A program made the position numbers and the translations under genes. The notes below the pieces were generated by a model that was not told where the DNA came from, made no database searches, and saw nothing but the letters and a program-made list of their open reading frames with translations. DNA of 39,145 nucleotides, from contig JBDOIB010000021.1 of assembly GCA_041082155.1 (NCBI GenBank), forward strand, positions 1-39,145, written 5' to 3'. Origin of the DNA: Thermodesulfobacteriota bacterium. Its GTDB lineage: Bacteria > Desulfobacterota > BSN033 > UBA1163. Below, one piece after another: positions 5,363-28,089 of this stretch (position 1 is its first letter; the number at the start of each line of letters is the position of its first letter).

Positions 5363-5388
5363 AAAGAAATCTCATACGGGGAGATTAA

Positions 5389-6216
5389 ATGAAGGCTTTT
5401 CGTGGACAACCCAGTATCTTTGCCTCCACTCGGCCCGAAGAGCGTCGGGCCGAGCTGGAGGTTAAACAGATCTATCTCAATTTTGGGGGTGTGATGGCCC
5501 TCCATAATGTAGACCTCACTGTTCATACAGGAGAGTTGCTCAGCATCATTGGCCCCAATGGTGCAGGAAAAACAAGCCTCCTTAATTGTATCACAGGGTA
5601 CTATCATCCCCAGCGGGGACAGATCTTTTTTAATGGTGAGGAGATTACCGGATTCCATCCCCATGAGATTACAAAGAAGGGCATCGGCCGGACTTACCAG
5701 AATATCGAACTCTTTCCCGGAATTACCGTTCTTGGTAATATGCTTCTGGCCCGCCATCTTTATTGCAATTATGGGATCGCAAAGGCATCTATCTTTTCAC
5801 CCAATGTCAGAAAAGAGGAGGTTCGTCATCGAAGGGTTCTTGAAGAATTGATCGATTTTTTAGAGATGCAGTCGATTCGAAAAAAACTCGTGGGTTCTCT
5901 CCCCTATGGATTAAGAAAAAGGGTGGAGTTGGGCCGGGCCCTTGCCTTGGAACCGAAGCTTCTGGTTTTAGACGAACCTTTTGCTGGAATGACCCTTGAA
6001 GAGAAGGAGGATATGGTTCGTTTTCTCCTTGAGCTGAATGCCGCCTGGGGCCAGACGATTATCCTTGTGGAACATGATATGTCTGTCGTGATGAGTATCT
6101 CCCAGAGGATTGTCGTATTGAATTTCGGGGAGAAGATCGCCGAAGGTCCACCTGAGGAGATCCAGAACCATCCAGAGGTCATCAAGGCTTACTTAGGGGA
6201 TACTACAAAGATTTAA
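5389..6216 (+). CDS. ABC transporter ATP-binding protein, LivG-like
   Basis: Walker A GPNGAGKTS. Signature-region LPYGLRKRVELGRAL. Walker B LLVLDEPFAGM. LivG-type C-terminus PEVIKAYLG. Confidence 0.9.
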   Translation: MKAFRGQPSIFASTRPEERRAELEVKQIYLNFGGVMALHNVDLTVHTGELLSIIGPNGAGKTSLLNCITGYYHPQRGQIFFNGEEITGFHPHEITKKGIGRTYQNIELFPGITVLGNMLLARHLYCNYGIAKASIFSPNVRKEEVRHRRVLEELIDFLEMQSIRKKLVGSLPYGLRKRVELGRALALEPKLLVLDEPFAGMTLEEKEDMVRFLLELNAAWGQTIILVEHDMSVVMSISQRIVVLNFGEKIAEGPPEEIQNHPEVIKAYLGDTTKI

Positions 6217-6259
6217 GATTTTTATCCTCCCCAACAAAGATTTCATTGGAGTGGAATAA

Positions 6260-8209
6260 ATGACGGAAGTTAGAAAGACAGAGCGAATAGACCAACAGAC
6301 CCTTCTTTCATTGATGAACTATACCCTCCCACAGATTCTATTTCAGCAGGCCAAGCGTTTTGGATCCCAAAAGATCGCAATTCGGGAGAAGATGTACGGA
6401 ATATGGCTCTCTTATACCTGGGAGGATTATCTTCGATATACGAAACAGGTGGCCCTCGGATTAAAACATATGGGACTTCAGCGTGGAGAGAAGATCGGGA
6501 TTATCACCGATAACCATCCTGAATGGCTCTTCACCGAGATGGGAGCTCAGGCCATAGGGGCCATCACCGTTAACCTCTTTACCTCCTCCATTGCAAAAGA
6601 GTTGGCCATCATGCTCAATCGTATTCAGGCTGTCTTTGTTGTAGCCCAGGATCAGGAACAGGTGGATAAACTTCTTGAGGTGAAAGGCGATCTTCCTCAT
6701 GTGCGAAAGGTAATCTATATTGATCAAACCGGGATGAGAACCTATGTGGGAAATCCCTGGTTGATGAGTTTTAAGGAACTCTTAGAGCTTGGTGCAAAGG
6801 TGGACCAGGAACAACCCCATCTTTTTGAAGAGGAACTATGGAAGGGAAAACCTGACGAAGTGGCTCTCATGATTATGACCTCCGGAACCACAGGGATCCC
6901 GAAACTGGCCATGATATCCCACAGAAGTTTCACTGAAATCGCAAGGAAGTGGGTTGAGACCGCTCCCATCGGACCTGAGGATAACTGGATCTCCATTACC
7001 CCCACCGCCTGGATCGTGGATCAGATGTGGGGGATGGGGGTTTCTCCTCTTGCCGGAATGGCCATGAACTTTCCTGAGACCTTAGAAACTCAGGCCGAGG
7101 ATTTCAGAGAGATTGGTCCTGTAGTCATTATTACTTCTTCAAGGTTCTGGGAAGATCTTGCCTCAAAGATCAGAGTAAAGATGGCGGATGCAGGATGGGT
7201 AAAGAGGAAACTTTTCCATCTGGGAGAAAAGATTGGAGGGGCGGTCGTTGACCGGGAGTCTAAGAAAGAACCTGTTCCTTCGGTATTGAGGATTCTCCAT
7301 AAGATATTTTCAAAGATTGTTTATCAACCTCTGCTCGATCGGGTGGGCTGTTCCCAGATTCGAGCTGCCATTACCGGTGGACATCCCATTAGCCCCGATG
7401 TGATCCGTTTCTTCCGCGCCAAAGGCCTAAACCTCAAACATGCCTATGGCCTTACGGAGGGAGGGGGAGTCTTTCAGGTTCAACCGGATAAGGAAGTGAA
7501 GCCTGAAACCGTCGGGAAGCCACTGCCTCGAACCGAAATCAAGATTGCAGAGGATCAGGAAGTTCTCGTGAGAACTCCTTCTTGTTTTGTGGGTTATTAT
7601 CAGGACCCTGAGGCCACTCAGAAGGCTTTAAGGAATGGGTGGCTTCATACCGGAGATGCTGGGTACATTGATGATGATGGGCATCTACTGATCATCGGGC
7701 GAAAAGAAGAGATTATGCGAACCAAGGCTGGGGAAGCCATCTCCGCAGACTTTATTGAAACCCGGCTAAAGTTCAGTCCTTATATCAAAGAGGCTGTGGT
7801 CTGGGGAGAAGGACGGGACTATATCACGGGATTTATCAATATCGATTTTGGGAATGTGGGAAGCTGGGCCGAGGATCGAATGATCCCCTATACGACCTAT
7901 ACGGATCTTTCACAACGACCCGAAGTCGAAGAACTCATCCTTAATGAAGTTCGTCAAGTCAACAACCAACTCCCCAAACCGATGAGGCTTAAAAAAATCA
8001 TTCTCCTTTATAAACTTCTTGATGCAGATGATGAAGAGCTCACCCGGACCGGAAAGGTCAGACGTAAATTTGTTTATGAGCAGTACCTTAATTTGATTGA
8101 AGCCATGTATAGCGGTAAAGAGGAGCTGGAGGTCACCGGAAAAGTTCGTTATCGAGACGGTCACGTCGGCACGATCACGACGAAAGTGAAGATCCTTACC
8201 GTTGAATGA
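6260..8209 (+). CDS. Long-chain-type (FAA1/COG1022-like) AMP-forming acyl-CoA ligase embedded in the ABC transporter operon
   Basis: AMP-binding motif MTSGTTGIPKLAMISH. GWLHTGDAGYIDDDGHLLIIGRKEE motif. C-terminal LTRTGKVRRKF. At 649 aa the size is typical of this subfamily. RBS GGAGTGGA. Confidence 0.85.
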   Translation: MTEVRKTERIDQQTLLSLMNYTLPQILFQQAKRFGSQKIAIREKMYGIWLSYTWEDYLRYTKQVALGLKHMGLQRGEKIGIITDNHPEWLFTEMGAQAIGAITVNLFTSSIAKELAIMLNRIQAVFVVAQDQEQVDKLLEVKGDLPHVRKVIYIDQTGMRTYVGNPWLMSFKELLELGAKVDQEQPHLFEEELWKGKPDEVALMIMTSGTTGIPKLAMISHRSFTEIARKWVETAPIGPEDNWISITPTAWIVDQMWGMGVSPLAGMAMNFPETLETQAEDFREIGPVVIITSSRFWEDLASKIRVKMADAGWVKRKLFHLGEKIGGAVVDRESKKEPVPSVLRILHKIFSKIVYQPLLDRVGCSQIRAAITGGHPISPDVIRFFRAKGLNLKHAYGLTEGGGVFQVQPDKEVKPETVGKPLPRTEIKIAEDQEVLVRTPSCFVGYYQDPEATQKALRNGWLHTGDAGYIDDDGHLLIIGRKEEIMRTKAGEAISADFIETRLKFSPYIKEAVVWGEGRDYITGFINIDFGNVGSWAEDRMIPYTTYTDLSQRPEVEELILNEVRQVNNQLPKPMRLKKIILLYKLLDADDEELTRTGKVRRKFVYEQYLNLIEAMYSGKEELEVTGKVRYRDGHVGTITTKVKILTVE

Positions 8210-8303
8210 AACGCTATATTGCAAATAAAAATTGTTTGAATGCTGGTTAATGGCTAATTTTTCAATCTGCAATTTGTATCGATCTTTTTAGGGGGTTTTC
8301 TTT

Positions 8304-9182
8304 ATGGAATTCTTTTTTCAACTTCTGGTTCAAGGCCTCTCTGTTGGGTTTCTCTATGCCCTTGCCGCCCTTGGGTTTGTGATGATCTTTAAATCTTCGA
8401 GTGTCCTTAATTTTGCCCACGGAGAGCTACTGGCCATCGGGGCGTTTGTCTTTCTGGTCTTCTCGGTTCGATTAAACCTTCCCATTCCAATAGCTTTTAT
8501 TTTTACACTCGCAGGAACCTTTGCATTGGGATTTATCATTGAGCGCCTCTTCCTTCGTCCCCTGATCGGTGAGGCATTAATCGAAGTCATCATGCTTACC
8601 GTTGGTTTAGCAGCCATGTTCAAAGGGCTCCTGCTGGTCATCTTTGGGGGAAATCTTTTTAATTATCCCGATTTCCTTCCCAAGGGACTTACCATTCAAT
8701 GGGGGGCAGTGGTCATTCAACCTGTTTATGTCGCCTCTTTTATTATTGGAATCATCTTCCTTTCCGTCTTTGGATTCTTTTTCAAATATTCCTCTCAAGG
8801 AATCTATATGAGGTCGGTCGCAGATAATCAACCCGCTGCACTGTCTCTGGGGGTCCATGTACGAAGGGTCTTTGCCCTCTCCTGGGCTATTGCCTCTCTG
8901 GTCTGTGCCCTCAGTGGAATCATCCTCGGAATCATGAATGGAATCAATGTTCACGATATTAGTATCATGGGGTTGAAAGTCTTCCCAGTCGTGATCCTTG
9001 GTGGACTGGAAAGTATCGGAGGTGCCATCATCGGAGGGCTTATCATCGGGTTGCTTGAAACCTTCACCGGGGGCTATGTCTCCACCTCACTTAAAGAAGT
9101 GATTCCCTTTGTGGTACTGGTCTTTATTCTTTTAGTGAAGCCCTATGGCCTCTTTGGTTTAGTGGAGATTGAACGGGTTTAA
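8304..9182 (+). CDS. Branched-chain-amino-acid-type ABC transporter permease, LivH-like
   Basis: Polytopic membrane protein. It carries NFAHGELLAIGAF, the hallmark of LivH/BPD_transp_2 permeases. Confidence 0.9.
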   Translation: MEFFFQLLVQGLSVGFLYALAALGFVMIFKSSSVLNFAHGELLAIGAFVFLVFSVRLNLPIPIAFIFTLAGTFALGFIIERLFLRPLIGEALIEVIMLTVGLAAMFKGLLLVIFGGNLFNYPDFLPKGLTIQWGAVVIQPVYVASFIIGIIFLSVFGFFFKYSSQGIYMRSVADNQPAALSLGVHVRRVFALSWAIASLVCALSGIILGIMNGINVHDISIMGLKVFPVVILGGLESIGGAIIGGLIIGLLETFTGGYVSTSLKEVIPFVVLVFILLVKPYGLFGLVEIERV

Positions 9183-9203
9183 GATCTGGTTAGAGGAGGA
9201 AGA

Positions 9204-10274
9204 ATGAGAAAACTGAGATTTCATCCATGTGGAAACTATAAAGAGAGTTACGAGGAAGAACTAACCATATTCACCACAGACTTTGGAAGACTATGGACCG
9301 GGATAGGACTCATTCTTCTTTTTGTGGTCATTCCTTTGATCTCTAATCCTTATCTTCTGTACGTCATCAATCATATCGGGATAGCCGCTATTGCGGCGAT
9401 TGGTCTCAATATTCTCATTGGATATACCGGGCAGATCTCATTGGGGCATGGAGCCTTTTTTGGGGTGGGGGCCTATGGAGCAGCGATTCTGGCCACTGCG
9501 GTAGGATTCCCATTCTGGCTCTCCGTCATTGGTGCCGGTGTGATTACAGCCATGGTCGGGATGGTCTTTGGGATTCCTTCGGCAAGGCTCAAACACCTCT
9601 ACCTGACGATTGCTACTCTCGCCGGTCAGTTTATTCTGCAATATCTTTTTGTCTCCTGGGAAAGCCTTACCAAAGGTCCGATGGGAATCATGCTTCCTCG
9701 GGCAACCCTCTTTGGATTCGATGTCAAAGGGGACCGAACCTTTTATTATGTCATCTTTGTCTGCTTTGTGGTCTTGACATGGATTGCAGTCAATCTCATG
9801 CGAACCCGATATGGGCGGGCATTCATTGCTATCCGGGATAACGATCGGGCGGCTGAGGGAATGGGGATTCCGATCTTCCGGTATAAACTTCTCTCTTTTG
9901 CCATTAGCTCCTTTTATGCTGGTTTTGCAGGTGGCCTTGCGGCCTTCTACATCGGGAGTATTACTCCGGAACCCTATACGCTGATGCTCTCCGTAGAATA
10001 CATTGCAATGATTATCATTGGTGGTTTAGGAAGTATCCCGGGATCGGTATTTGGAGCTATTTTCATCACTTCTTTAAACGAGATTTTAAGCCATGCCACA
10101 CAGTTTTTTATGAATATTGGCGTGTTGACGAAGGTCGCTCTGACGATCGCACCTCTTCGGGAGTTCATCTTTGGATTGGCGATCGTTCTCTTTATTATCT
10201 TCGAACCTCGAGGATTGGCTGAGGTTTGGAGAATCATCAAGTCAAGCTTTAAACTCTGGCCATTTTCATATTAA
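9204..10274 (+). CDS. Branched-chain-amino-acid-type ABC transporter permease, LivM-like
   Basis: Polytopic membrane protein. GYTGQISLGHGAFFGVGAY motif typical of LivM. Strong RBS GAGGAGGA. Confidence 0.9.
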   Translation: MRKLRFHPCGNYKESYEEELTIFTTDFGRLWTGIGLILLFVVIPLISNPYLLYVINHIGIAAIAAIGLNILIGYTGQISLGHGAFFGVGAYGAAILATAVGFPFWLSVIGAGVITAMVGMVFGIPSARLKHLYLTIATLAGQFILQYLFVSWESLTKGPMGIMLPRATLFGFDVKGDRTFYYVIFVCFVVLTWIAVNLMRTRYGRAFIAIRDNDRAAEGMGIPIFRYKLLSFAISSFYAGFAGGLAAFYIGSITPEPYTLMLSVEYIAMIIIGGLGSIPGSVFGAIFITSLNEILSHATQFFMNIGVLTKVALTIAPLREFIFGLAIVLFIIFEPRGLAEVWRIIKSSFKLWPFSY

Positions 10275-10294
10275 AAAGGGTGGTGAGGTAAGAA

Positions 10295-11098
10295 ATGGAA
10301 GACAACCTTCTTCTTCAGATCAACAATATCAGTGTCGTCTATTCAGACGTCATTCAGGTCCTCAAAGGGGTCTCACTGGAGGTGAAGAAGGGGCAGATTG
10401 TTTCTCTCCTTGGAAGTAATGGAGCAGGTAAAACGACCACTCTGAAAGCCATCTCAGGACTCCTTAAACCCGAAAATGGAAAGGTCACTGAAGGAAGTAT
10501 CATTTATCAGGGTCGTCCCATTCATAACTCTTCTCCGGAAGAGATTACCCGATTAGGGATCATTCAGGTTCTTGAAGGTCGCCAACCCTTTAAATACCTC
10601 ACGGTGGAGGAAAACCTAAGGGTCGGAACGGCCACTCGATGGGGGAAACCTTACAAAAAGGACCTTGAATTGGTCTACCATTATTTTCAGCCATTGGTGG
10701 CTCGAAAGAATCGACTGGCCGGATACTGTAGCGGCGGAGAGCTACAGATGCTCGTGATGGGTCGGGCCTTGATGGCTCAACCCAAGCTTCTTCTCCTTGA
10801 TGAGCCCTCTCTGGGGCTCGCTCCCTTTCTGGTAAGAGAGATCTTTGAAATCGTAAAGAGGATCAATGAAGAGCAGGGAACGACGATCATGCTCGTCGAG
10901 CAGAATGCCAATATGGCCCTTCAGATTGCACACTATGGATATGTGATGGAGAATGGAAAGATCGTAATGGAAGACGAGGCTTCAAAATTGAGAGAGAATC
11001 CGGATGTAAAGGAGTTTTACCTTGGTACGGCAACCTCCGGAGCCCTAAAATCATATAAAGACGTAAAGGCTTATAAGAGGCGAAAAAGGTGGCTATAA
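10295..11098 (+). CDS. ABC transporter ATP-binding protein, LivF-like
   Basis: Walker A GSNGAGKTT. Signature CSGGELQMLVMGRAL. Walker B LLLLDEPSLGLAP. VEQNANMAL motif. Confidence 0.9.
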   Translation: MEDNLLLQINNISVVYSDVIQVLKGVSLEVKKGQIVSLLGSNGAGKTTTLKAISGLLKPENGKVTEGSIIYQGRPIHNSSPEEITRLGIIQVLEGRQPFKYLTVEENLRVGTATRWGKPYKKDLELVYHYFQPLVARKNRLAGYCSGGELQMLVMGRALMAQPKLLLLDEPSLGLAPFLVREIFEIVKRINEEQGTTIMLVEQNANMALQIAHYGYVMENGKIVMEDEASKLRENPDVKEFYLGTATSGALKSYKDVKAYKRRKRWL

Positions 11099-11162: not shown

Positions 11163-11207
11163 ATTAAAAATGCTTCATTTGTGAAAATTTGCACTGAAGG
11201 AAAGGGG

Positions 11208-12794
11208 ATGAAGAGTCCTATGGATATTCATATTGGAGAGATACTGGCAAGAAACGCAAGACTCTATCCCAATGAGGTTGCTCTCATTGAAAGGATCCCG
11301 GCCGAGGGAAAGAGAAAAGAGATTACCTGGAGGCAGTTCGATGAGAGGGCCAATCGATTTGCTAATGCTTTGATGCAAAGAGGAATTGGAAAAGGGGATA
11401 AGGTCATCCACCTCATGATGAATTCCATCGATTGGCTGATTGCCTATTTTGGTATTATTCGGACAGGGGCCTGGGCAGTGCCACTCAATTTTCGCTTCAC
11501 GGGGAGTGATATTAAATACTGCTGCGAAGTGGCTGAACCTAAAGCCATGATCTTTGGAGAAGAGTTTGTGGATCGAGTGAGCGAAATTAAGGATGATCTT
11601 CCTACGATTAAACATTATTTCTTTGTGGGGAAGGAGGTTCCAAGTTACGCAGAGTCTTTTGAACGGGCTCTTGACAGAGCCCCTTCCACCCCCTCCAATG
11701 TTACGATCACTTACCATGATCCCTGTGGTCTTTACTTTACTTCAGGGACAACCGGGCAGCCCAAGCCGATTCTTCTTACCCATAAGAATATGATCTGTGC
11801 CTGTATCACGGAGAATCATCATCATTTCCAGACCCGAAGGGACAACTTTATTCTTATTCCTCCTCTTTATCATACCGGAGCGAAGATGCACTGGTTCGGG
11901 AGTTTTATCGTGGGAGGCCGGGCAGTGATTCTGAAAGGAGTCGCTCCTGAGTATATTCTTGAAGCCATTCATGAAGAGAAAGGAACGCTTATTTTCCTTC
12001 TGGTTCCATGGGCTCAGGATATTCTGTTAAAAATTGATAGCGGGGAGATTAAACTAGAAAATTATGATCTCAAACAGTGGAGGCTGATGCATATCGGGGC
12101 CCAACCTGTTCCTCCTTCTCTGGTCAAACACTGGAAGGAATATTTTCCTCGTATGGCTTATGATACCAATTATGGATTAAGTGAGTCTACCGGTCCCGGG
12201 TGTGTTCATCTTGGAATAGAGAATGAGCATAAGGTTGGAGCCATTGGCCTGCCGGGGTTTAACTGGGAAGCACGGATTGTGGATGAAGAGGGAAGGGATG
12301 TGCGACAGGGAGAAGTCGGAGAGCTGGTCGTCCGCGGAGATGGGGTCATGAAGGAGTATTACAAAAACCCTGAGGCTACAGCAAAGGCAATCCGTGATGG
12401 CTGGCTTTATACGGGAGATATGGCCAGACAGGATGATGAAGGATTTATCTATTTAGTGGATCGGAAAAAGGACCTGATCATCTGTGGAGGTGAGAATGTT
12501 TTTCCTGTGGAGGTTGAGGATTTTCTTCACACCCTGCCGGGGGTGAAGGATGTGGCTGCCATCGGATTTCCGGACGAACGACTGGGGGAGATCGTGGGGG
12601 TGATCATTGAGGTGGTTCCCGGAAAGACCCTCACCGAAGAAGAGGTCTTTAGATTCTGTGAACAGCTCCCAAAATATAAACGCCCGCGGAAGGTCATCTT
12701 TGGAGAGGTTCCCCGAAATCCCACCGGAAAGATCGAAAAACCCAAACTTCGAAAGAAGTATATCGGAGTGGAAGAGGCCTTTAAGATAAAATAA
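11208..12794 (+). CDS. AMP-forming acyl/aryl-CoA ligase (medium-chain / aromatic acid type)
   Basis: Motifs YFTSGTTGQPKPILLTHKN, GWLYTGDMARQDDEGFIYLVDRKKDLIICGGENVFPVEVE and PRNPTGKIEKPKL. I preferred the ATG at 11208 (RBS GAAGGAAAGGGG) to the track GTG at 11181. Confidence 0.88.
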   Translation: MKSPMDIHIGEILARNARLYPNEVALIERIPAEGKRKEITWRQFDERANRFANALMQRGIGKGDKVIHLMMNSIDWLIAYFGIIRTGAWAVPLNFRFTGSDIKYCCEVAEPKAMIFGEEFVDRVSEIKDDLPTIKHYFFVGKEVPSYAESFERALDRAPSTPSNVTITYHDPCGLYFTSGTTGQPKPILLTHKNMICACITENHHHFQTRRDNFILIPPLYHTGAKMHWFGSFIVGGRAVILKGVAPEYILEAIHEEKGTLIFLLVPWAQDILLKIDSGEIKLENYDLKQWRLMHIGAQPVPPSLVKHWKEYFPRMAYDTNYGLSESTGPGCVHLGIENEHKVGAIGLPGFNWEARIVDEEGRDVRQGEVGELVVRGDGVMKEYYKNPEATAKAIRDGWLYTGDMARQDDEGFIYLVDRKKDLIICGGENVFPVEVEDFLHTLPGVKDVAAIGFPDERLGEIVGVIIEVVPGKTLTEEEVFRFCEQLPKYKRPRKVIFGEVPRNPTGKIEKPKLRKKYIGVEEAFKIK

Positions 12795-12810: not shown

Positions 12811-12856
12811 AGGGGAGGCGAATGAAAGCCATCTTTCATTCGCCTCCCCTTTTTAT
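12811..12856 (+). terminator. Rho-independent terminator
   Basis: Perfect 18-bp stem, AGGGGAGGCGAATGAAAG (12811-12828) pairing with CTTTCATTCGCCTCCCCT (12833-12850). The loop is CCAT and TTTTAT follows. It starts 17 nt after the ligase stop codon. Confidence 0.9.
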
Positions 12857-12896
12857 GAATAGGAAGAAATTAAAAAAGTATGTTATCTTTAAATAA

Positions 12897-13715
12897 ATGA
12901 AGGATGAGGGAGGGATATTCTTAGGGATTGATATTGGTTCGTACAACTCCAAGGGAGTCTGTCTGAATCCTCAAGAGACTCTGGCCTCCTTTGATTGCCT
13001 GTCTCGAGGGGACTATAAGGCGACGGCCGAAAAGATTAAAGCCGAACTCCTTCGTCACTCCGGAAGGAAAGAAGAGGAGATCTCCTGGACAGTCGCCACC
13101 GGATTCGGTGCACAACTCGTTTCTTACGCCAATGAGACTAAAACAGATATTTTATGCCTGGCCAAAGGGGTGGCCTCGATTTTCCCTCACGTGAGAACGG
13201 TGATAGATATCGGAGATCTCTATACGAAGATCATCCGAATGGATGGCAGAGGGACGGTCCATAATTTTCTATTAAGTGGAAAGTGTGCAGGGGGAAGCGG
13301 TCGAATTCTTCTCATCATAGCAAAGGTTTTACAGATCAGGGTCGAGGAGATAGGTGAGTTGTCACTGAAATCTCAAAAGAGGGTGGATTTTCATACGGGA
13401 TGCGCGGTCTTCTCGGAATCGGAGGCCATTTCGCGGATTGCCGAGGGTGAAAAAAAGGAAGACCTACTGGCCGGCCTTCACCGAGCCCTTGCCGCTCAAA
13501 TTCATAGTCTTGTGCAGAGAATCGGTGTGGAAAAGGAGGTGGCTATCGTGGGAGGGGGAGCAAGGGATGTGGGATTGATCCAGGCCTTCCAGGAGGTATC
13601 AGGTTATGAGGTGTGGGTTCCTCCTCAGCCCCACATGGTTGCTGCCTTAGGGGCAGCTCTCATTGCGAGAGAAAATGTTCTTAAACGGGAGTCAATGGGC
13701 CAAGGATTCAACTGA
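12897..13715 (+). CDS. BcrAD_BadFG/HgdC-family ASKHA ATPase subunit (activator / BCR ATPase-type), divergent paralogue
   Basis: Motifs GIDIGSYNSKGV, GKCAGGSGRIL and GCAVFSESEAIS, with both cluster-ligand Cys contexts kept. Overall it is colinear with HgdC. The phosphate-2 motif reads DIGDLY instead of DIGGQD. Confidence 0.85.
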   Translation: MKDEGGIFLGIDIGSYNSKGVCLNPQETLASFDCLSRGDYKATAEKIKAELLRHSGRKEEEISWTVATGFGAQLVSYANETKTDILCLAKGVASIFPHVRTVIDIGDLYTKIIRMDGRGTVHNFLLSGKCAGGSGRILLIIAKVLQIRVEEIGELSLKSQKRVDFHTGCAVFSESEAISRIAEGEKKEDLLAGLHRALAAQIHSLVQRIGVEKEVAIVGGGARDVGLIQAFQEVSGYEVWVPPQPHMVAALGAALIARENVLKRESMGQGFN

Positions 13716-13794
13716 AAAATTTCCAATCTTTGAATCCTTCTTTACCACTAAATTCGAGAAGAAATTCAAAATCTTTTAGAGAAGGGGAGAAGAG

Positions 13795-14952
13795 ATGAAA
13801 TTAGATGATGTCTTTTTTAAGATCGAAAAGCAATTTAAGGAGTATGGATCAAGAGCAAGAGAGCTCGCGAGAGAAGGCCGAAAGATTATCGGTTATATAT
13901 GTTCCTTTGTCCCTCTGGAGATGATCGCAGCCTCAGGTGCTATTCCTTTTCGTGTCAGGGGAAATATTCAGGAACCCATTACCCTTGGAGATACGCTTCT
14001 TGAAACCATCGTCTGTCCCTATTATCGAAGTTGTTTTGACCTTTCCATCAAGGGAAGGTATGAATTTCTCTCAGGGCTGGTCATCCCTCATGCCTGTGAC
14101 AGCATGGTAAGGAGTTACAGTGTCTGGAGTTATTCTCTCCCCTATTCCTATTTTCATTTTGTCAATGTTCCAACAGTCTGTGAAGACTCCTCGTTTGAGT
14201 TCTTCGAAGAAGAACTGAAACATTTCAAAAAAAGTCTTGAGAAGTTTACAGGGAAATCTATTCAGGATGAAGATCTTTCGAAGGCTATTCACCTCTATAA
14301 CAAAAACAGGGATAAGATTAGAGCCCTTTATGAACTGAGAAAGGAGGATCCTCCCCTCCTCTCGGGTACCGAAATGACCATGGCCTTGACAGTAGGATCA
14401 GGCCTTCCCGTCGATGAGTCCAACGAATGGTTCGATCAGGTGATTGAAGCTGCAAAGGGACGAGGGCATTCTCCTCTTTCAAAGGGACCCAGGATTTTAA
14501 TCGATGGGGCCTGTATTGATCATATCGAACTGGTCAAACTGATCGAAGAATTGGGGGGGAATGTGGTGGCCGATACCATCTGCAATGGAGCTCGAGATTC
14601 CTTTCCGAAGACAGAAGAATCGGGAAATCCTATCCAGGCCCTTTCCCATCGCTATCTTGATCAACTGAACTGTCCAAAGACTTATCGGGCAAACAAGGCT
14701 GGAACATTCGAAGGGGATATTGCTAACCGATTTGGTGATATTGGAACTCGTGCCAAGGAGTTTCGGGTGGATGGAGCCATCCTCTATGTTTACAAATACT
14801 GTGATCCTTTTGGGTTCGAAGTTCCTGCCCGAAAGGCCTATTATCAGATGATCCAGGTCCCTATGCTTCATTTGGAGGATACCTATTCGGCAGGGAATCT
14901 GGGTCAACTTCGAACAAGAATCCAAGCCTTTTTAGAAATGATCAGTAAATAA
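13795..14952 (+). CDS. HGD-D family subunit (BcrC/BzdN/HgdB-like) of a benzoyl-CoA reductase / 2-hydroxyacyl-CoA dehydratase-type enzyme
   Basis: 385 aa. Family-typical N-terminus KIIGYICSFVPLEMIAASGAIPFRVRG. Cys contexts are CPYYRSC, HACDSM and YKYCDPFGFE. RBS GAAGGGGAGAAG. Confidence 0.8.
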   Translation: MKLDDVFFKIEKQFKEYGSRARELAREGRKIIGYICSFVPLEMIAASGAIPFRVRGNIQEPITLGDTLLETIVCPYYRSCFDLSIKGRYEFLSGLVIPHACDSMVRSYSVWSYSLPYSYFHFVNVPTVCEDSSFEFFEEELKHFKKSLEKFTGKSIQDEDLSKAIHLYNKNRDKIRALYELRKEDPPLLSGTEMTMALTVGSGLPVDESNEWFDQVIEAAKGRGHSPLSKGPRILIDGACIDHIELVKLIEELGGNVVADTICNGARDSFPKTEESGNPIQALSHRYLDQLNCPKTYRANKAGTFEGDIANRFGDIGTRAKEFRVDGAILYVYKYCDPFGFEVPARKAYYQMIQVPMLHLEDTYSAGNLGQLRTRIQAFLEMISK

Positions 14953-14968
14953 AAAAGGAGGTTCAACG

Positions 14969-16372
14969 ATGGCTGAGCAGCAGAAAGAGGCTAAACCAAA
15001 GAAAAGAATGACGGCTACCAGGGCAGCTGCATCGATCGGACCCATGGTGAAGAGTTTTATTACCGAAACCCTTCAAGCACGGGCCGAAGGAAAACAGAAA
15101 TTGGCCTATACGTTTATTGTTTGTCATCATGAGGAGATCCTGCGAGCCATGGACGTCATTCCGATCTGGACAGAGAATTTCGCAGGGGTCTGTGGAGCCA
15201 AGCGAGATGCCGAAAGGTTCCTCCAGAGGGCAGAATCCTTGGGACTCTCCCGCTCTCTATGCACCTATGCCCTTTGCGGAATCGGATTTGATCAGTGGAG
15301 GGAAGAGTTAGGGGAGATGCCTCCTGATTCTCCTTGGGGAGGGATGGCGAGGCCTGATTTTATGATCTCCAGTGGGCAGATTCTCTGTGATCCGAGATCA
15401 AAATGGTACCAAGCCTCACAACAATTTATGCCGGATGTCCCCATCTATAATATCGATCTTCCCTATCCTCTGTTTCAAAGAGATCAGGACCATCGAGAAG
15501 TCTGGGGCTACTACCATAAGTATATCGTCAAGCAGTTGAGAGGATTGGTCGCATTTGTGGAAGAGCAGACCAAAAAGAAGATGGATTATGATCGGCTCCG
15601 GGAGTTGGTCGATCTGAGCGATCGAACCTGGAATCTAATCGATGAAACCTACCGCCTCCGGAAGGCCGTTCCCTGTCCCATGGGAACCGGAGATGCAATG
15701 AATACCATGGTTCCGATCTGTTTTATGATGGCTACCCAGAAGGCCTATGACTTCTTTGTCGAACTCAAAAAGGAGCTGGAAGAGAAGATTGCCAAAGGAG
15801 AGGGAGAAGTTGAAAATGAGAAGTATCGACTCATGTGGGGAGGAGGACTGCCTGCATGGTATGCCTTAAATGACTTTAATTATTTTAATAGTAAGGGGGC
15901 TTCTTTCCCTGTGGAGACCACCTATCGAATGGTTGCCCCTCTCTACGAGATGGATATCCCGGAAACGAAGGATCCGATTGAGCATCTAGCCTGGAGATGG
16001 CTTGGATATTGGACTTTCTGGTATGACAAAGCGAGGAAAAGGCCTAATTCCGAACCGGATGTAGAACGTCTGATCAACTGGATTGAAGAATATAAGATTG
16101 ATGGGATTGTGATGCATGAGGCCTTTTCCTGTCGAACCTGGCATGTAGGTCTGATCTGGCAACTCCATCAATTAGGCAAGATTTACAAGCCTATTCCTCT
16201 CTATGTCGTTGGGAAAGATGGTAAAAAAGAGGTGGTTATGAAGGAACTCCCCTCTCTGATCTTAGAGAGTGATATTATTGACATTACTTCCTATTCTGAG
16301 GTGGATACTCGAAAAAAGATTGACGCCTTTATTGAAACCCTGGAGTCCTATCGGCTCAATAGAGCCTATTAA
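14969..16372 (+). CDS. HGD-D family subunit (BcrB/BzdO/HgdA-like) of the same enzyme
   Basis: 467 aa. KLAYTFIVCHHEEILRAMDVIPIW region. Cys contexts are LCTYALCG, ILCDPRSKW and FSCRTWH. Strong RBS AAGGAGG. It starts 16 nt after the previous gene. Confidence 0.78.
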   Translation: MAEQQKEAKPKKRMTATRAAASIGPMVKSFITETLQARAEGKQKLAYTFIVCHHEEILRAMDVIPIWTENFAGVCGAKRDAERFLQRAESLGLSRSLCTYALCGIGFDQWREELGEMPPDSPWGGMARPDFMISSGQILCDPRSKWYQASQQFMPDVPIYNIDLPYPLFQRDQDHREVWGYYHKYIVKQLRGLVAFVEEQTKKKMDYDRLRELVDLSDRTWNLIDETYRLRKAVPCPMGTGDAMNTMVPICFMMATQKAYDFFVELKKELEEKIAKGEGEVENEKYRLMWGGGLPAWYALNDFNYFNSKGASFPVETTYRMVAPLYEMDIPETKDPIEHLAWRWLGYWTFWYDKARKRPNSEPDVERLINWIEEYKIDGIVMHEAFSCRTWHVGLIWQLHQLGKIYKPIPLYVVGKDGKKEVVMKELPSLILESDIIDITSYSEVDTRKKIDAFIETLESYRLNRAY

Positions 16373-16398
16373 TTTCAGAACCCCATGGAGAGAGCCTA

Positions 16399-17241
16399 TT
16401 GACCTCCTACTTTGCCGGCATTGATATTGGGTCCACCATGACCAAGGTGGTGATCTTGAAGGATGGGGTTCTCACCTCCATTATCGGACCCACAGGTCCC
16501 GAACAACGTCGTCTGGCCAACAAGGTCATGGAGGAGGCTTTAAAGAAAGCCAACCTCCCTTTCTCTGAAATCCAGTATATCGTCTCTACCGGATATGGAA
16601 GGATTAATGTCCCATTTTCTGACCGTCAGATCACAGAGATCACCTGTCATGCAAAGGGGGTAAGCTATCTCATCCCTGAAGCAAGAACCATCATTGATAT
16701 TGGGGGTCAAGATTCAAAGGGGATAAAGATTGACCGAGGTGGGAAGGTCCTTGATTTTGTGATGAATGACAAATGTGCAGCCGGAAGTGGCCGCTTTATT
16801 GAAGTCATTGCTGAAACCCTTGGAATCTCCCTCAAAGACGTTGGCGAACTCTCTCTTCAGAGCCAGCATCCTGCGAAGATCAGCAATATCTGTACGATTT
16901 GGGCTCAACAAGAAGTGGCTGCGAGTTTAGCCCAGGGCATTGCGATTTCCGATTTACTGGCCGGGGTCCACTACTCCTTGGCAGAGAGGATCGGAAGAAT
17001 GGTGAGTCGATTAAAGATTGAGAGGGCGATTGTGGTCACTGGAGGGGGAGGGAAAAATAAAGGACTCCTTCATGCCCTTTCAGAGGTCTTGGGAGAAAAG
17101 CTCATGGTTCCAGAGGAACCCTTGATCACAGGAGCTCTCGGAGCCGCTTTGATAGCTCGAGAGATTGTTGAAGAGGCTAAGAAAAATAAGATAGTTCTTA
17201 AAACCAAAGAGCGTCGGCTGGAAGAGATAGAGATCCTATAG
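16399..17241 (+). CDS. BcrAD_BadFG/HgdC-family ASKHA ATPase subunit, canonical motifs (TTG start)
   Basis: Motifs FAGIDIGSTMTKVVIL, IIDIGGQDSKG, MNDKCAAGSGRFIEV, ICTIWAQQEV and VVTGGGGKNKGL. It aligns closely by eye with Acidaminococcus HgdC. GGAGAG lies 6-7 nt before the TTG at 16399. Confidence 0.88.
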   Translation: MTSYFAGIDIGSTMTKVVILKDGVLTSIIGPTGPEQRRLANKVMEEALKKANLPFSEIQYIVSTGYGRINVPFSDRQITEITCHAKGVSYLIPEARTIIDIGGQDSKGIKIDRGGKVLDFVMNDKCAAGSGRFIEVIAETLGISLKDVGELSLQSQHPAKISNICTIWAQQEVAASLAQGIAISDLLAGVHYSLAERIGRMVSRLKIERAIVVTGGGGKNKGLLHALSEVLGEKLMVPEEPLITGALGAALIAREIVEEAKKNKIVLKTKERRLEEIEIL

Positions 17242-18928: not shown

Positions 18929-18933
18929 GCTTC

Positions 18934-21367: not shown

Positions 21368-22038
21368 AGGAGCTGATTCGGGTGGAACAGCTCTATAAAT
21401 CCTTTGGTAACGGGGCCAAACGGGTGGAAGTCCTGAAAGGAATTGATCTGATCTTTTATCAAGGAGAGAGTGTAGCCATTGTGGGTGCCTCTGGGGCTGG
21501 AAAGACCACCCTACTTCATATCCTGGGAACGATCGATCGGCCCACCTCCGGGAAGGTTTATTACGAAGGGAAGGATATTTTTACAATGGGAGAGAAAGAA
21601 CTCGCCCATTTCCGGAATCGGGAGATTGGATTTGTTTTTCAATTTCATCACCTTCTTCCTGAATTCAATGCCCTGGAGAATACCATGATGCCCTGTCTCA
21701 TCCAGGGGATTTCCAAGAAAGAGGCCGCTCTTCGAGCTGAAGCCATTCTAACGACAGTAGGATTGAAAGAGCGTCTCACTCATAAACCCGGGGAGCTTTC
21801 AGGAGGAGAGCAGCAGCGAGTGGCCGTAGCCAGGGCTCTCGTTTTAGAACCGAAGGTCCTTCTGGCCGATGAGCCCACAGGGAATCTGGATACAAAAACA
21901 GGAGAGGCCATTTTTACCCTTCTTCGGGAACTCAATCGGGAAAAAGGGGTAACCCTGATTATGGTCACCCATAATCTTAAACTGGCCGGAGAGCTTCCAA
22001 GGCAGATCCACCTGGTGGATGGGAAGATCAATGCTTAG
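21364..22038 (+). CDS. lolD: Lipoprotein-releasing system ATP-binding protein
   Basis: Walker [10 protein letters not shown]. Signature [15 protein letters not shown]. Walker [12 protein letters not shown]. Size (224 aa) and context next to lolE fit LolD. Confidence 0.9.
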
Positions 22039-22092
22039 GGACCCTCTGTTTACAAAATGAGTCGGATCTGGTATGGAAGAAGAGATTTTTTT

Positions 22093-28088: not shown

Positions 28089-28089
28089 G

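What the first reader, a model, noticed from the sequence alone, without database searches (positions are those of the whole stretch)
12897..17241. Orphan four-gene ATPase / HGD-D / HGD-D / ATPase module: a benzoyl-CoA-reductase-like or atypical dehydratase-like radical enzyme of unassigned substrate
Seen: two different BcrAD_BadFG ATPases (272 and 280 aa) bracket two HGD-D family proteins (385 and 467 aa). Both ATPases keep the two Cys contexts that ligate the dimer-bridging [4Fe-4S] cluster in HgdC (K-C-A-G/A-G-S-G, and C-x-V/I-F/W). Both HGD-D proteins are Cys-rich. Established: 2-hydroxyacyl-CoA dehydratases (Hgd, Fld, Had, Lcd) use one homodimeric activator gene. Class I benzoyl-CoA reductases (BcrCBAD, BzdNOPQ and relatives) are heterotetramers with two different ATPase subunits plus two HGD-D-type subunits. 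Two non-identical ATPase genes therefore argue for a BCR-like architecture. However, the gene order (ATPase, gamma-like, beta-like, ATPase) is neither bcrCBAD nor bzdNOPQ. No ferredoxin, dienoyl-CoA hydratase, hydroxyacyl-CoA dehydrogenase, ring hydrolase or CoA-transferase is present, and the next gene is lysS. Inference: this is an ATP-driven low-potential reductase (or dehydratase) acting on a CoA ester I cannot assign.
Basis: partly seen in the sequence, partly recalled or inferred. Interest (0 to 1): 0.72.

Follow-up and report, generated by a model that had tools for sequence, protein, structure and literature searches.

The report
Uncharacterised ATP-driven iron-sulfur radical enzyme cassette
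These four genes encode a widespread, highly conserved but unstudied relative of benzoyl-CoA reductases and 2-hydroxyacyl-CoA dehydratases in syntrophic and sulfate-reducing bacteria; it has an unusual pair of ATPases, one with a broken ATP site, and it is probably not a benzoyl-CoA reductase.

Summary
Four + strand genes (12897-17241) encode an ATPase (A1), an HGD-D protein (N), a second HGD-D protein (O) and a second ATPase (A2).

- **Conservation:** the same order occurs in 58 of 81 loci, from Syntrophaceae, Syntrophus buswellii, NaphS2, Desulfatiglandales and Desulfobacteraceae.
- **No named family:** no protein reaches a BCR, HAD or double-cubane equivalog cutoff. None of the 111 full-length sequences among the 150 nearest 50%-identity clusters of O is within 50% identity of the BzdO, MbdO or HadB fragments tested.
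- **N subunit:** it keeps all six Cys that hold the [8Fe-9S] double cubane in BzdN and DCCP.
- **O subunit:** it keeps the three-Cys catalytic [4Fe-4S] site, the catalytic Glu and the thioester-binding Tyr. BzdO His131 is Arg and Gln274 is Leu.
- **A2:** a canonical activator.
- **A1:** it keeps the cluster cysteines but has lost the phosphate-binding residues (GGQD to GDLY; catalytic Glu to Asp). It is missing from nine loci.
- **Context:** partners are a FadD-type ligase and a thiolase. Benzoyl-CoA pathway genes are not among the recurrent neighbours. Related clusters sit in 2-hydroxyacid or aliphatic acyl-CoA settings.

Best reading (confidence about 0.45): an ATP-primed ketyl-radical enzyme, most likely a dehydratase, acting on an aliphatic acyl-CoA. 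A BCR-like reductase remains a serious rival (about 0.3). It is a new variant of a known kind, of moderate interest.

The parts
12811..12850 (+). Intrinsic-terminator-like hairpin (18-bp stem, 10 G-C pairs, then TTTTT) that ends the transporter/ligase transcription unit just upstream of the cassette
   Evidence: Equivalent hairpin plus T-tract, with different stem sequences, after the ligase in L015, L024, L026 and L027.
12879..12886 (+). Conserved upstream motif TATGTTAT (family consensus T[G/A]TGTTAT), a possible promoter or operator element of the cassette
   Evidence: Matches allowing one mismatch occur within 260 nt upstream of the first cassette gene in 21 of 70 loci, most of them in the Syntrophaceae-type loci most similar to the window. 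About 0.06 matches are expected per stretch of that length. Function not tested.
12897..13715 (+). A1: BcrAD_BadFG/ASKHA-family subunit that keeps both [4Fe-4S]-bridging cysteines but has a degenerate nucleotide site (delta-like, probably not ATP-hydrolysing)
   Evidence: Pfam 1.2e-48. Across 56 orthologues: DIGST becomes DIGS[A/Y/F], DIGGQD becomes D[VI]GDLY, and the cluster Cys motifs are kept. The catalytic-base Glu is Asp in 54 of 56. Every solved relative keeps GST and GGQ. The exact start codon is uncertain: there is no Shine-Dalgarno sequence before the ATG at 12897.
13795..14952 (+). N: BzdN/DCCP-like HGD-D subunit predicted to bind an [8Fe-9S] double-cubane cluster (electron store or relay)
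   Evidence: HGD-D 1.9e-78. Best PDB hit is BzdN 8s02_B at 2.9e-44. Best NCBIfam hit is double_cubane, 210 bits against a cutoff of 350. C36, C74, C101, C263, C293 and C336 are invariant in 72 of 72 orthologues and align with Cys in BzdN and DCCP. HadC has 4 of 6 and MbdN 3 of 6.
14969..16372 (+). O: catalytic HGD-D subunit with a three-Cys [4Fe-4S] site that leaves one Fe open; the predicted acyl-CoA binding subunit and the most conserved protein of the cassette
   Evidence: HGD-D 5.5e-53. C98, C140 and C388 correspond to BzdO C95, C128 and C380; E69 to E65; Y100 to Y97. BzdO H131 is R143 here and Q274 is L294. AF2 model pLDDT 94.1. TM-score 0.77 to BzdO, 0.78 to MbdO, 0.76 to HadB and 0.65-0.67 to DCCP. 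71-97% identity across the 84 related loci fetched.
16399..17241 (+). A2: canonical ATP-dependent electron-activating ATPase (HadI/HgdC/MbdQ/DCCP-R type) with a bridging [4Fe-4S] cluster
   Evidence: Pfam 1.5e-60. TIGR00241 'acyl-CoA dehydratase activase' 268.6 bits against a cutoff of 125.4. PDB: HadI 1.7e-70, MbdQ 2.4e-67. DxGST, DIGGQD, both Cys motifs and the GGG adenosine motif are conserved in 76 orthologues. The catalytic Glu is present in 76 of 76.
11181..12794 (+). Associated FadD-type acyl-CoA ligase (537 aa), the likely supplier of the CoA-ester substrate
   Evidence: AMP-binding 1.3e-79. [quoted passage not shown] The same ligase family is next to the cassette in 28 loci, in at least three different arrangements.
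4136..11098 (+). Context only: Liv-type ABC uptake system (binding protein, two ATPases, two permeases) with an embedded 649-aa FadD11-like ligase
   Evidence: Found upstream of the cassette only in the Syntrophaceae subgroup (12-16 loci).

Best explanation
The cassette encodes a four-component Fe-S radical enzyme of the BCR/HAD superfamily and, in this window, probably forms its own transcription unit. Shown from sequence: N carries the six-Cys site of a BzdN/DCCP-type [8Fe-9S] double cubane. O carries the three-Cys [4Fe-4S] site with one open Fe, plus the conserved catalytic Glu and the thioester-binding Tyr. A2 is a complete ATP-dependent electron activator. A1 keeps the cluster cysteines but has lost the residues that bind and hydrolyse ATP. 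Inferred mechanism: A2, either as an asymmetric A1:A2 heterodimer sharing one [4Fe-4S] cluster or as an A2 homodimer where A1 is absent, takes an electron from a low-potential donor. It uses ATP hydrolysis to inject that electron into the N double cubane, which passes it to the O cluster. There the electron reduces the thioester carbonyl of a bound acyl-CoA to a ketyl radical. The substrate is most likely an aliphatic or alicyclic acyl-CoA made by the FadD-type ligase. The reaction is most likely a HAD-type elimination (2-hydroxyacyl-CoA to 2-enoyl-CoA) with the electron recycled, and the product would enter ordinary beta-oxidation (thiolase). It is not a benzoyl-CoA reductase in the sense of the characterised families.
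For: Architecture. Cofactor sites: six double-cubane Cys invariant in 72 of 72 N orthologues. E69, C98, Y100, C140 and C388 are invariant in O, whereas DCCP, which uses no CoA ester, has Leu at the Tyr position. A2 is canonical and passes the dehydratase-activase model. A1 replaces exactly the residues G92-Q93-D94 and E69 that the DCCP-R study ties to phosphate binding, catalysis and coupling to the cluster (PMC9351452). A1 is nevertheless under purifying selection, with mean pairwise identity 0.65. The A2-like plus A1-like pair also occurs in the related cluster L088. The BCR delta subunit MbdP shares the Glu-to-Asp change and loss of the Asp after GGQ, which supports a heterodimer. Aliphatic or dehydratase lean: the ligase is FadD13/FadD5-like. 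In 36 non-redundant contexts the only recurrent metabolic neighbours are AMP-ligases and thiolases. A GlcD/GlcF-type D-2-hydroxyacid dehydrogenase fusion accompanies the ligase and thiolase in 7 loci. The sister family lies next to 2-oxoacid:ferredoxin oxidoreductase and a D-2-hydroxyacid dehydrogenase. Other relatives lie next to a TPP enzyme with CoA-transferase, or next to a CoA-transferase, a single activator and an enoyl-CoA hydratase. BzdO His131 and Gln274 are not conserved. The hosts are strict anaerobes, many of them syntrophs, for which stoichiometric ATP use would be costly. That last point is an inference from the class I versus class II BCR distribution described in PMC11971306.
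Against: The double cubane in N is the BzdN state, proposed to store two or more electrons for a net reduction. Characterised HADs have lost it (PMC11971306). The best sequence hits among solved structures are BzdN and BzdO, although O scores only 67 bits. No CoA-transferase or 2-Hacid_dh appears among the cassette's nearest neighbours, and the GlcD-like gene is present in only 7 of about 80 loci. Functions of the relatives are themselves inferred only from context. Fold comparison does not discriminate BzdO, MbdO and HadB. A terminator separates the ligase from the cassette in the window, so the link to the ligase rests on conserved adjacency rather than shown co-transcription. No expression or biochemical data exist for any member; the NaphS2 copy is not among the genes listed in that study's expression tables.
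Confidence: 0.45

Rival explanations
1. A BCR-like ATP-dependent two-electron reductase. An A1:A2 alpha/delta-type heterodimer drives electrons stoichiometrically through the N double cubane to O, which reduces a non-benzoyl CoA ester. That ester could be an alicyclic, polycyclic, substituted aromatic or otherwise hard-to-reduce unsaturated acyl-CoA.
For: Four-gene content of two HGD-D proteins plus two different ATPases. BzdN-type six-Cys double cubane. Best solved-structure matches are BzdN and BzdO. The catalytic Glu and thioester Tyr of BzdO are kept. A1 shares substitutions with the BCR delta subunit MbdP. The cassette occurs in aromatic-compound degraders such as NaphS2 and S. buswellii. 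Strict anaerobes can use ATP-dependent aryl-CoA reductases, as NaphS2 does in naphthalene degradation (PMC6129605; PMC2988823).
Against: No BCR equivalog cutoff is reached, and all scores are below half of the cutoff. BzdO His131 is Arg and Gln274 is Leu. A1 lacks the phosphate-binding residues, so a 2-ATP-per-2-electron cycle is unlikely as such. A1 is absent from nine loci. No ferredoxin, dienoyl-CoA hydratase or ring hydrolase appears among the 25 most frequent neighbour families in 36 non-redundant contexts. The ligase is of fatty-acid type. Relatives sit in non-aromatic contexts. NaphS2's naphthalene-induced BCR-like genes are a different locus with a different gene order.
Confidence: 0.3
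2. The two ATPases do not form a heterodimer. A2 homodimerises and is the sole activator, as HadI, HgdC and DCCP-R do. A1 is a separate homodimeric [4Fe-4S] protein with another role, such as an ATP-independent electron carrier, a docking or protection factor, or a regulator. This rival concerns assembly only and is compatible with either chemistry.
For: Eight loci keep N-O-A2 without A1, and their A2 proteins nest within the A2 clade next to genomes that do have A1, which indicates secondary loss. A1 is the least conserved and most loosely linked gene, with up to 2 kb between A1 and N. The A1 nucleotide site is degenerate. A2 resembles homodimeric activators at 43% identity.
Against: A1 keeps both cluster cysteines and is under purifying selection in 56 genomes. 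The A2-like plus A1-like pair recurs in a related cluster. A1 shares its signature substitutions with a true heterodimer subunit, MbdP. In the A1-less MAGs an A1 gene could lie elsewhere; this was not testable.
Confidence: 0.25
3. A DCCP-like reductase of a small, non-CoA molecule.
For: The best NCBIfam hit of N is the double-cubane reductase model. The C-D-x-R motif of O is closest to the CDGK of DCCP.
Against: O has only three of the six double-cubane Cys ligands and keeps the thioester-binding Tyr that DCCP lacks. The enzyme would be a heterodimer rather than a homodimer. O is structurally closer to BzdO, MbdO and HadB (TM 0.76-0.78) than to DCCP (0.65-0.67). Acyl-CoA ligase and thiolase are the recurrent partners.
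Confidence: 0.07

Closest known systems
BzdNOPQ, the Azoarcus/Aromatoleum-type class I benzoyl-CoA reductase (PDB 8S02; PMC11971306)
   Same: Gene content of two HGD-D proteins plus two ASKHA ATPases. N shares all six double-cubane Cys with BzdN. O shares the three cluster Cys, Glu65 and Tyr97 of BzdO. These are the best sequence hits among solved structures, and TM-score is 0.77.
   Different: Only 22% identity to BzdO, with bit scores far below the equivalog cutoffs. BzdO His131 is Arg and Gln274 is Leu. Gene order is A1-N-O-A2 rather than N-O-P-Q. One ATPase has a degenerate ATP site. Ferredoxin and benzoyl-CoA pathway genes are not among the recurrent neighbours. The ligase is FadD-type. 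The hosts are strict anaerobes.
(R)-2-hydroxyisocaproyl-CoA dehydratase HadBC with activator HadI (PDB 3O3M, 4EHT), and the HAD family in general
   Same: O is as close to HadB as to BzdO (TM 0.76; best NCBIfam hit). A2 and A1 are most similar to HadI, and both pass the dehydratase-activase model. The residue at the BzdO Gln274 position is hydrophobic, as in HadB. Relatives sit in 2-hydroxyacid or aliphatic acyl-CoA contexts.
   Different: N keeps the full six-Cys double-cubane site, whereas HadC has four of the six and a [4Fe-5S] cluster. There are two ATPase genes instead of one. An AMP-ligase replaces the CoA-transferase. No adjacent NAD-dependent 2-hydroxyacid dehydrogenase. Identity is about 20%.
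MbdONQP, 3-methylbenzoyl-CoA reductase (PDB 9G87, 9GAI)
   Same: A heterotetramer with a canonical alpha subunit (MbdQ, 45% identity to A2) and a divergent delta subunit (MbdP). MbdP shares the Glu-to-Asp change with A1, and in both the Asp that follows GGQ is replaced (Thr in MbdP, part of GDLY in A1). O to MbdO TM-score is 0.78, and both have the SCRT motif at the third Cys.
   Different: MbdN has only three of the six double-cubane Cys. MbdP still keeps GST and GGQ, whereas A1 does not. Identity is 19-21%.
Double-cubane cluster protein DCCP with DCCP-R (PDB 6ENO, 7YYL)
   Same: N shares the six Cys ligands and scores best against the DCCP model. A2 is 43% identical to DCCP-R. The C-D-x-R/K motif follows the second cluster Cys in O.
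   Different: DCCP is a homodimer with two double cubanes and a homodimeric reductase, and it uses no CoA substrate. Here O has lost the distal sub-cluster ligands and has the thioester Tyr.

Membership tests
Class I benzoyl-CoA reductase (Bcr/Bad, Bzd, Mbd types) | Scores above the curated equivalog cutoffs for the BcrA/B/C/D or BzdN/O/Q subunit models | tested here: not met
   bits against cutoff. N: BzdN 154 vs 454, BcrC 143 vs 421. O: BzdO 84 vs 449, BcrB 75 vs 487. A2: BzdQ 178 vs 380, BcrA 155 vs 578, BcrD 146 vs 313. A1: 123, 122 and 107 against the same three models.
Class I benzoyl-CoA reductase (Bcr/Bad, Bzd, Mbd types) | Two HGD-D-type subunits plus two different ASKHA ATPase subunits encoded together | tested here: met
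   The arrangement is conserved in 58 of 81 loci, but the gene order A1-N-O-A2 differs from bcrCBAD, bzdNOPQ and mbdONQP.
Class I benzoyl-CoA reductase (Bcr/Bad, Bzd, Mbd types) | Catalytic subunit with a three-Cys [4Fe-4S]-OH2 site flanked by Glu65 and His131, and a thioester oxygen held by Tyr97, Gln274 and Tyr298 (BzdO numbering, PMC11971306) | tested here: not met
   The three Cys, the Glu and Tyr97 are conserved. His131 is Arg143 and Gln274 is Leu294, both invariant in the 12-sequence family alignment. The Tyr298 position was not aligned. MbdO also lacks the His, so this feature may define only the Bzd type.
Class I benzoyl-CoA reductase (Bcr/Bad, Bzd, Mbd types) | Both ATPase subunits have intact nucleotide-binding motifs (stoichiometric ATP hydrolysis) | tested here: not met
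   A1 has GDLY in place of GGQD, has lost the phosphate-1 Thr, and has Asp in place of the catalytic Glu. MbdQ and MbdP keep GST and GGQ.
Class I benzoyl-CoA reductase (Bcr/Bad, Bzd, Mbd types) | Genomic association with ferredoxin, dienoyl-CoA hydratase, hydroxyacyl-CoA dehydrogenase, ring hydrolase and a benzoate-type CoA ligase | tested here: not met
   None is in the window. None is among the 25 most frequent Pfam families of 123 nearest neighbours in 36 non-redundant contexts. The ligase is FadD13-like.
Class I benzoyl-CoA reductase (Bcr/Bad, Bzd, Mbd types) | ATP-dependent two-electron reduction of an aryl-CoA | not testable with these tools
   This needs anaerobic enzymology.
2-Hydroxyacyl-CoA dehydratase (Hgd, Had, Fld, Lcd) | Scores above the equivalog cutoffs for HadB and HadC | tested here: not met
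   O to HadB 97 bits vs 750; N to HadC 143 bits vs 700.
2-Hydroxyacyl-CoA dehydratase (Hgd, Had, Fld, Lcd) | Alpha subunit with a three-Cys [4Fe-4S] cluster that has an open Fe site | tested here: met
   C98, C140 and C388 are invariant. Fold TM-score to HadB is 0.76, or 0.88 when normalised to HadB length.
2-Hydroxyacyl-CoA dehydratase (Hgd, Had, Fld, Lcd) | Beta subunit with a reduced [4Fe-5S] site (distal sub-cluster lost) | tested here: not met
   N keeps all six double-cubane Cys, whereas HadC has four of the six.
2-Hydroxyacyl-CoA dehydratase (Hgd, Had, Fld, Lcd) | A dedicated ATP-dependent activator of the HgdC/HadI type | tested here: met
   A2: TIGR00241 268.6 bits vs 125.4; HadI 1.7e-70; all motifs intact. 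An extra, degenerate A1 is present, which is not typical.
2-Hydroxyacyl-CoA dehydratase (Hgd, Had, Fld, Lcd) | Pathway context of an (R)-2-hydroxyacid dehydrogenase and a CoA-transferase | tested here: inconclusive
   No CoA-transferase or 2-Hacid_dh is among the nearest neighbours. A GlcD/GlcF-type D-2-hydroxyacid dehydrogenase fusion with ligase and thiolase occurs in 7 loci. Sister families do sit in such contexts.
Double-cubane cluster protein (DCCP) | A homodimer in which each subunit has the six-Cys [8Fe-9S] site; score above the NF040772 cutoff | tested here: not met
   N has six of six Cys but scores 210 bits vs 350. O has only three and scores 63 bits. There are two different subunits.

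The most novel reading that the evidence does not exclude
This would be a distinct, widespread class of ATP-driven low-potential Fe-S enzyme of strict anaerobes. It would combine a BzdN-type double-cubane electron store with a non-BCR catalytic subunit. It would be powered by an obligately asymmetric activator: a canonical ATPase (A2) paired with a partner that cannot hydrolyse ATP (A1) across one shared [4Fe-4S] cluster. That arrangement would cut the ATP cost per injected electron roughly in half and make this chemistry affordable for energy-starved syntrophs. The reaction would be one not yet known for the family, for example reduction or rearrangement of an aliphatic or alicyclic acyl-CoA.
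Probability: 0.2. Interest if true: 0.8.

Novelty: new variant of a known kind. Interest (0 to 1): 0.55.

Why it matters
The BCR/HAD family performs some of the most reducing chemistry in biology, yet only a handful of members are characterised. This cassette occurs in at least 161 species-level genomes of syntrophic and sulfate-reducing Thermodesulfobacteriota. One 90%-identity cluster alone holds 1747 metagenomic sequences. Automatic pipelines label these proteins 'benzoyl-CoA reductase subunit' or '2-hydroxyglutaryl-CoA dehydratase'. Genome-based studies can then read such labels as evidence for ATP-dependent aromatic degradation, which the data here do not support. Working out the function would add a missing reaction to the carbon metabolism of Syntrophaceae and Smithella-type organisms. 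It would also test whether a double cubane is used outside aromatic reduction. Finally, it would show what an ATP-site-dead activator subunit does, which bears on how ATP hydrolysis is coupled to electron injection.

Tried and rejected
1. First AF2 model of O, built from the shallow 12-sequence alignment: pLDDT 47, unusable. It was replaced by a model from a 111-sequence alignment with pLDDT 94.
2. Fold search did not separate BCR from HAD: TM-scores were 0.76-0.78 for BzdO, MbdO and HadB.
3. Hypothesis that the NaphS2 copy is the known naphthalene-induced NcrABCD reductase: rejected. NPH_5888-5891 has the order C, D, A, B, a different arrangement, and the cassette's 'D-component' gene does not appear in the expression tables.
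4. Literature searches found no study of this family. Topics covered were Syntrophus, Smithella, Desulfatiglans, the class I BCR structures, the double-cubane review and the limonene enrichment.
5. Ketone-induced 'BCR/HGD' subunits of Desulfosarcina cetonica (PMC7888143) could belong to this or a related family. I could not obtain their sequences.
6. The binding protein of the ABC transporter gave no ligand clue: the best PDB hit is an unliganded BCAA-type protein.
7. Downstream synteny genes (ResB, HU, deacetylase, LarB-like and others; my reading of the family representatives, with only ResB confirmed by Pfam) were judged housekeeping carry-over within Syntrophaceae, not functional partners.
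8. No Rfam element lies around the cassette, and no hidden small ORF lies after A2.
9. The fetch of an annotated region could not reach the S. buswellii record.

Full report
**1. Observation**

- A1, 12897-13715, 272 aa
- N, 13795-14952, 385 aa
- O, 14969-16372, 467 aa
- A2, 16399-17241, 280 aa, TTG start

A1 and A2 are BcrAD_BadFG proteins (1.2e-48 and 1.5e-60). N and O are HGD-D proteins (1.9e-78 and 5.5e-53).

Upstream on the same strand lies a Liv-type ABC uptake system with an embedded 649-aa ligase, followed by a 537-aa AMP-ligase. Downstream come lysS and lolCDE, then BamA and the lipid A genes. There is no ferredoxin, hydratase, dehydrogenase, ring hydrolase or CoA-transferase. No small ORF is hidden after A2, and no Rfam element is present.

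A strong terminator-like hairpin (18-bp stem plus T-run) sits at 12811-12850, between the ligase stop and the A1 start. Equivalent hairpins with different stem sequences follow the ligase in L015, L024, L026 and L027. In this lineage the cassette is therefore probably its own transcription unit.

**2. Distribution and conservation**

The O protein has hundreds of homologues at 70-93% identity. Nearly all come from Thermodesulfobacteriota MAGs, and one is from strain NaphS2. A scan of species-representative genomes found 161 genomes with a relative. The 80 best include Syntrophaceae, Syntrophus buswellii DM-2, NaphS2, Desulfatiglandales and Desulfobacteraceae. The window itself is Syntrophaceae-like, at 97% identity and with the same synteny as L008 and L033.

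Architectures across 81 distinct loci:

| Architecture | Loci |
|---|---|
| A1-N-O-A2 complete | 58 |
| Cut by contig ends | 14 |
| No A1 despite 2.9-8.9 kb of upstream sequence | 9 (8 are N-O-A2; one has N-O only) |

O is by far the most conserved component: 71-97% identity, against 58-88% for N, 58-91% for A2 and 54-83% for A1. One 90%-identity cluster of O holds 1747 metagenomic sequences.

**3. Placement**

No protein reaches any curated equivalog cutoff for BCR, HAD or DCCP. Both ATPases do pass the generic 'acyl-CoA dehydratase activase' domain model.

The closest solved structures by sequence are:
- for N: BzdN (2.9e-44)
- for O: BzdO (1.3e-17), MbdO and HadB
- for both ATPases: HadI and MbdQ

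An exhaustive profile search of 1.84 billion 50%-identity representatives found 187 clusters with E below 1e-30. The ten nearest reach no named family. None of the 111 full-length sequences among the 150 nearest is within 50% identity of the BzdO, MbdO or HadB fragments I reconstructed.

A high-confidence AF2 model of O (pLDDT 94.1) is equally close to BzdO (TM 0.77), MbdO (0.78) and HadB (0.76). It is further from DCCP (0.65-0.67) and from the N-type subunits (about 0.62). The family therefore lies in a large uncharted part of the BCR/HAD superfamily, roughly equidistant from reductases and dehydratases.

**4. Cofactor sites**

I used the BzdNO structure paper as the reference (PMC11971306).

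*N subunit.* C36, C74, C101, C263, C293 and C336 are invariant in 72 of 72 orthologues. They align with Cys in both double-cubane proteins, BzdN and DCCP. HadC has four of these six and MbdN three.

*O subunit.*
- C98, C140 and C388 correspond to BzdO C95, C128 and C380.
- E69 corresponds to the catalytic Glu65.
- Y100 corresponds to the thioester-binding Tyr97. DCCP, which uses no CoA ester, has Leu at this position.
- BzdO His131 is Arg143 here, and Gln274 is Leu294 (Ile in HadB).

The C-D-x-R motif after the second cluster Cys is shared by most of the uncharacterised radiation. Among known proteins it is closest to the CDGK of DCCP. It differs from CCSH in BzdO, CNQV in HadB and CNTF in MbdO.

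The predicted cofactor set is therefore BzdNO-like: an [8Fe-9S] cluster plus a [4Fe-4S] cluster with an open Fe. The substrate pocket, however, is not that of BzdO.

**5. The two ATPases are not equivalent**

A2 has every ASKHA and cluster motif intact in 76 orthologues. A1 differs in all 56 orthologues:
- It keeps both cluster cysteines and the adenosine motif.
- DIGST becomes DIGS[A/Y/F].
- DIGGQD becomes D[VI]GDLY.

The Glu equivalent to DCCP-R E69 is Asp in 54 of 56 A1 orthologues and Glu in 76 of 76 A2 orthologues. In DCCP-R, G92, Q93, D94 and K96 form the phosphate site and start the H-bond networks that couple it to the cluster. E69 acts as a catalytic base there (PMC9351452). A1 has lost G92, Q93, D94 and E69.

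All solved relatives, including the BCR delta subunit MbdP, keep GST and GGQ. MbdP does share the Glu-to-Asp change, and its Asp after GGQ is replaced by Thr.

A1 and A2 share 37-39% identity and form two deep clades. Neither is specifically BCR-like. The A2 proteins of A1-less loci nest inside the A2 clade beside genomes that do have A1, so A1 was lost secondarily. A1 is still under purifying selection, with mean pairwise identity 0.65 against 0.71 for A2.

A related cluster, L088, carries an A2-like ATPase and a milder A1-like ATPase (GSV, GGQA, Asp) in tandem. The pair is therefore ancestral to this radiation, and A1 here is the extreme case.

I infer an asymmetric A1:A2 dimer with one competent ATP site. 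An A2 homodimer would do the job where A1 has been lost. This inference is untested.

**6. Functional context**

The 537-aa ligase family lies next to the cassette in 28 loci, in at least three arrangements. It is FadD13/FadD5-like rather than benzoate-CoA-ligase-like.

A divergent thiolase accompanies the cassette in 11 loci, and a GlcD/GlcF-type D-2-hydroxyacid dehydrogenase fusion in 7.

I ran a Pfam census of the 123 nearest neighbours in 36 non-redundant contexts. AMP-ligases (6) and thiolases (4) were the only metabolic families with more than two members. No enoyl-CoA hydratase, ring hydrolase, ferredoxin, CoA-transferase or 2-Hacid_dh appeared in the top 25 families.

Contexts of the relatives:

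| Relative | Locus | Neighbours |
|---|---|---|
| Sister family (about 45% identity) | L085, L086 | 2-oxoacid:ferredoxin oxidoreductase; D-2-hydroxyacid dehydrogenase in L085 |
| P0129 | L088 | TPP enzyme, family-III CoA-transferase, formyltransferase |
| P0130 | L091 | CoA-transferase, a single activator, enoyl-CoA hydratase, DUF35/thiolase-like gene |

None of these contexts is aromatic. The sister-family N proteins also keep all six Cys, so a double cubane is not restricted to aromatic-ring reductases.

**7. Interpretation**

Shown by sequence: this is a four-component BCR/HAD-family Fe-S enzyme with a BzdNO-type cofactor set, a CoA-ester-type active site, one canonical activator and one ATP-site-degenerate partner.

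Inferred: ATP-driven injection of an electron passes through the double cubane to the open-site [4Fe-4S] cluster, producing a ketyl radical on an acyl-CoA.

I favour a HAD-type elimination on an aliphatic or alicyclic 2-hydroxyacyl-CoA that feeds beta-oxidation (confidence about 0.45). The reasons are:
- the fatty-acid-type ligase and thiolase partners
- the contexts of relatives
- the activator-like ATPases
- the non-BzdO pocket
- the energy budget of the syntrophic hosts

The main rival is a BCR-like stoichiometric reductase of a non-benzoyl CoA ester (about 0.3). It is supported chiefly by the retained double cubane, which BzdN is proposed to use for storing two or more electrons, and by the paired ATPases.

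A separate question is whether A1 and A2 heterodimerise or act independently; I give the independent-action rival about 0.25. A DCCP-like reductase of a small, non-CoA molecule is unlikely (about 0.07).

**8. Comparison with known systems and novelty**

The cassette works like a member of the BCR/HAD family. It fails the membership tests for class I BCR:
- equivalog scores
- His131 and Gln274
- an intact second ATP site
- pathway context

It also fails the tests for HAD (equivalog scores, reduced beta-subunit cluster) and for DCCP (homodimer with two double cubanes).

I found no paper that treats this family. Source databases label these proteins 'benzoyl-CoA reductase subunit' or '2-hydroxyglutaryl-CoA dehydratase'. 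Genome-based studies of related organisms use BCR-type gene hits to argue for ATP-dependent aromatic degradation.

I rate it a new variant of a known kind. It is moderately interesting in itself, and more so if the asymmetric activator or a new reaction type is confirmed.

Noticed in passing
window 12811-12850: A near-perfect 18-bp hairpin followed by TTTTT lies directly after the ligase stop codon. Hairpins with different stem sequences but the same position and T-tract follow the orthologous ligase in L015, L024, L026 and L027. This suggests a conserved terminator, or possibly an attenuator, between the ligase and the cassette.
   Followed up: partly
window 12879-12886, and upstream of A1 in about 20 loci: The motif T[G/A]TGTTAT (one mismatch allowed) recurs within 260 nt upstream of the first cassette gene in 21 of 70 loci, against about 0.06 expected per stretch. 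Most matching loci are the Syntrophaceae-type loci most similar to the window. It could be a promoter -10 region or an operator; the regulator is unknown.
   Followed up: partly
window 12897-12915: The A1 start codon is uncertain. There is no Shine-Dalgarno sequence before the ATG at 12897, and a GGAGGG lies inside the first codons. Orthologue alignments begin around residue 7-9.
   Followed up: no
window 6260-8209: A 649-aa FadD11-like AMP-ligase is embedded inside the Liv-type ABC transporter operon, between the first ATPase and the permeases. The arrangement is conserved in 12 loci and looks like coupled uptake and activation of an organic acid.
   Followed up: partly
L088:1-9972: A related N-O-ATPase-ATPase cluster sits behind an HMG-CoA-lyase-like gene, a 645-aa TPP enzyme, a family-III CoA-transferase and a formyltransferase. 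This looks like a formyl-CoA / 2-hydroxyacyl-CoA-lyase-type module coupled to a radical dehydratase. It recalls the ketone-induced 'BCR/HGD' proteins of Desulfosarcina cetonica (PMC7888143).
   Followed up: partly
L085:359-6474 and L086:852-6468: The sister family (about 45% identity to O) occurs as an N-O pair without an adjacent ATPase, next to a four-subunit 2-oxoacid:ferredoxin oxidoreductase. In L085 a D-2-hydroxyacid dehydrogenase is also present. Its N protein also has all six double-cubane Cys.
   Followed up: partly
L031:8859-11398 and L012:8685-9819: L031 has N-O with neither ATPase nearby. In L012 the N gene matches in two overlapping pieces, which indicates a frameshift, either a pseudogene or an assembly error.
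   Followed up: no
window 14969-16372 (O residues C52, C75, C103) and window 13795-14952 (N residue C240): These are additional cysteines beyond the known cluster ligands, invariant in the family alignments examined (12 O sequences; 72 N orthologues). O C52 aligns with the first distal-cubane ligand position of N and DCCP, and is found almost only in this family. Their role is unknown.
   Followed up: partly
window 135-3747 and 17447-35688: The transporter, ligase and cassette block sits inside an outer-membrane and lipid A biogenesis neighbourhood: TamB, Usp, lysS, LolC/E-like permease, a TPR plus double cNMP-binding protein, an ABC ATPase (LolD-like), BamA, LpxD, LpxA, a GFO/IDH/MocA-family oxidoreductase, LpxB, MsbA-like, KdtA and LpxK. 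A LeuA-type synthase follows. Only L008 and L033 share the lysS flank.
   Followed up: partly
window 27153-29232: The GFO/IDH/MocA-family ORF (27153-28088) and the LpxB ORF (27976-29232, GTG start) overlap by 113 nt. The true LpxB start is probably further downstream, since the Pfam match begins at residue 42.
   Followed up: no
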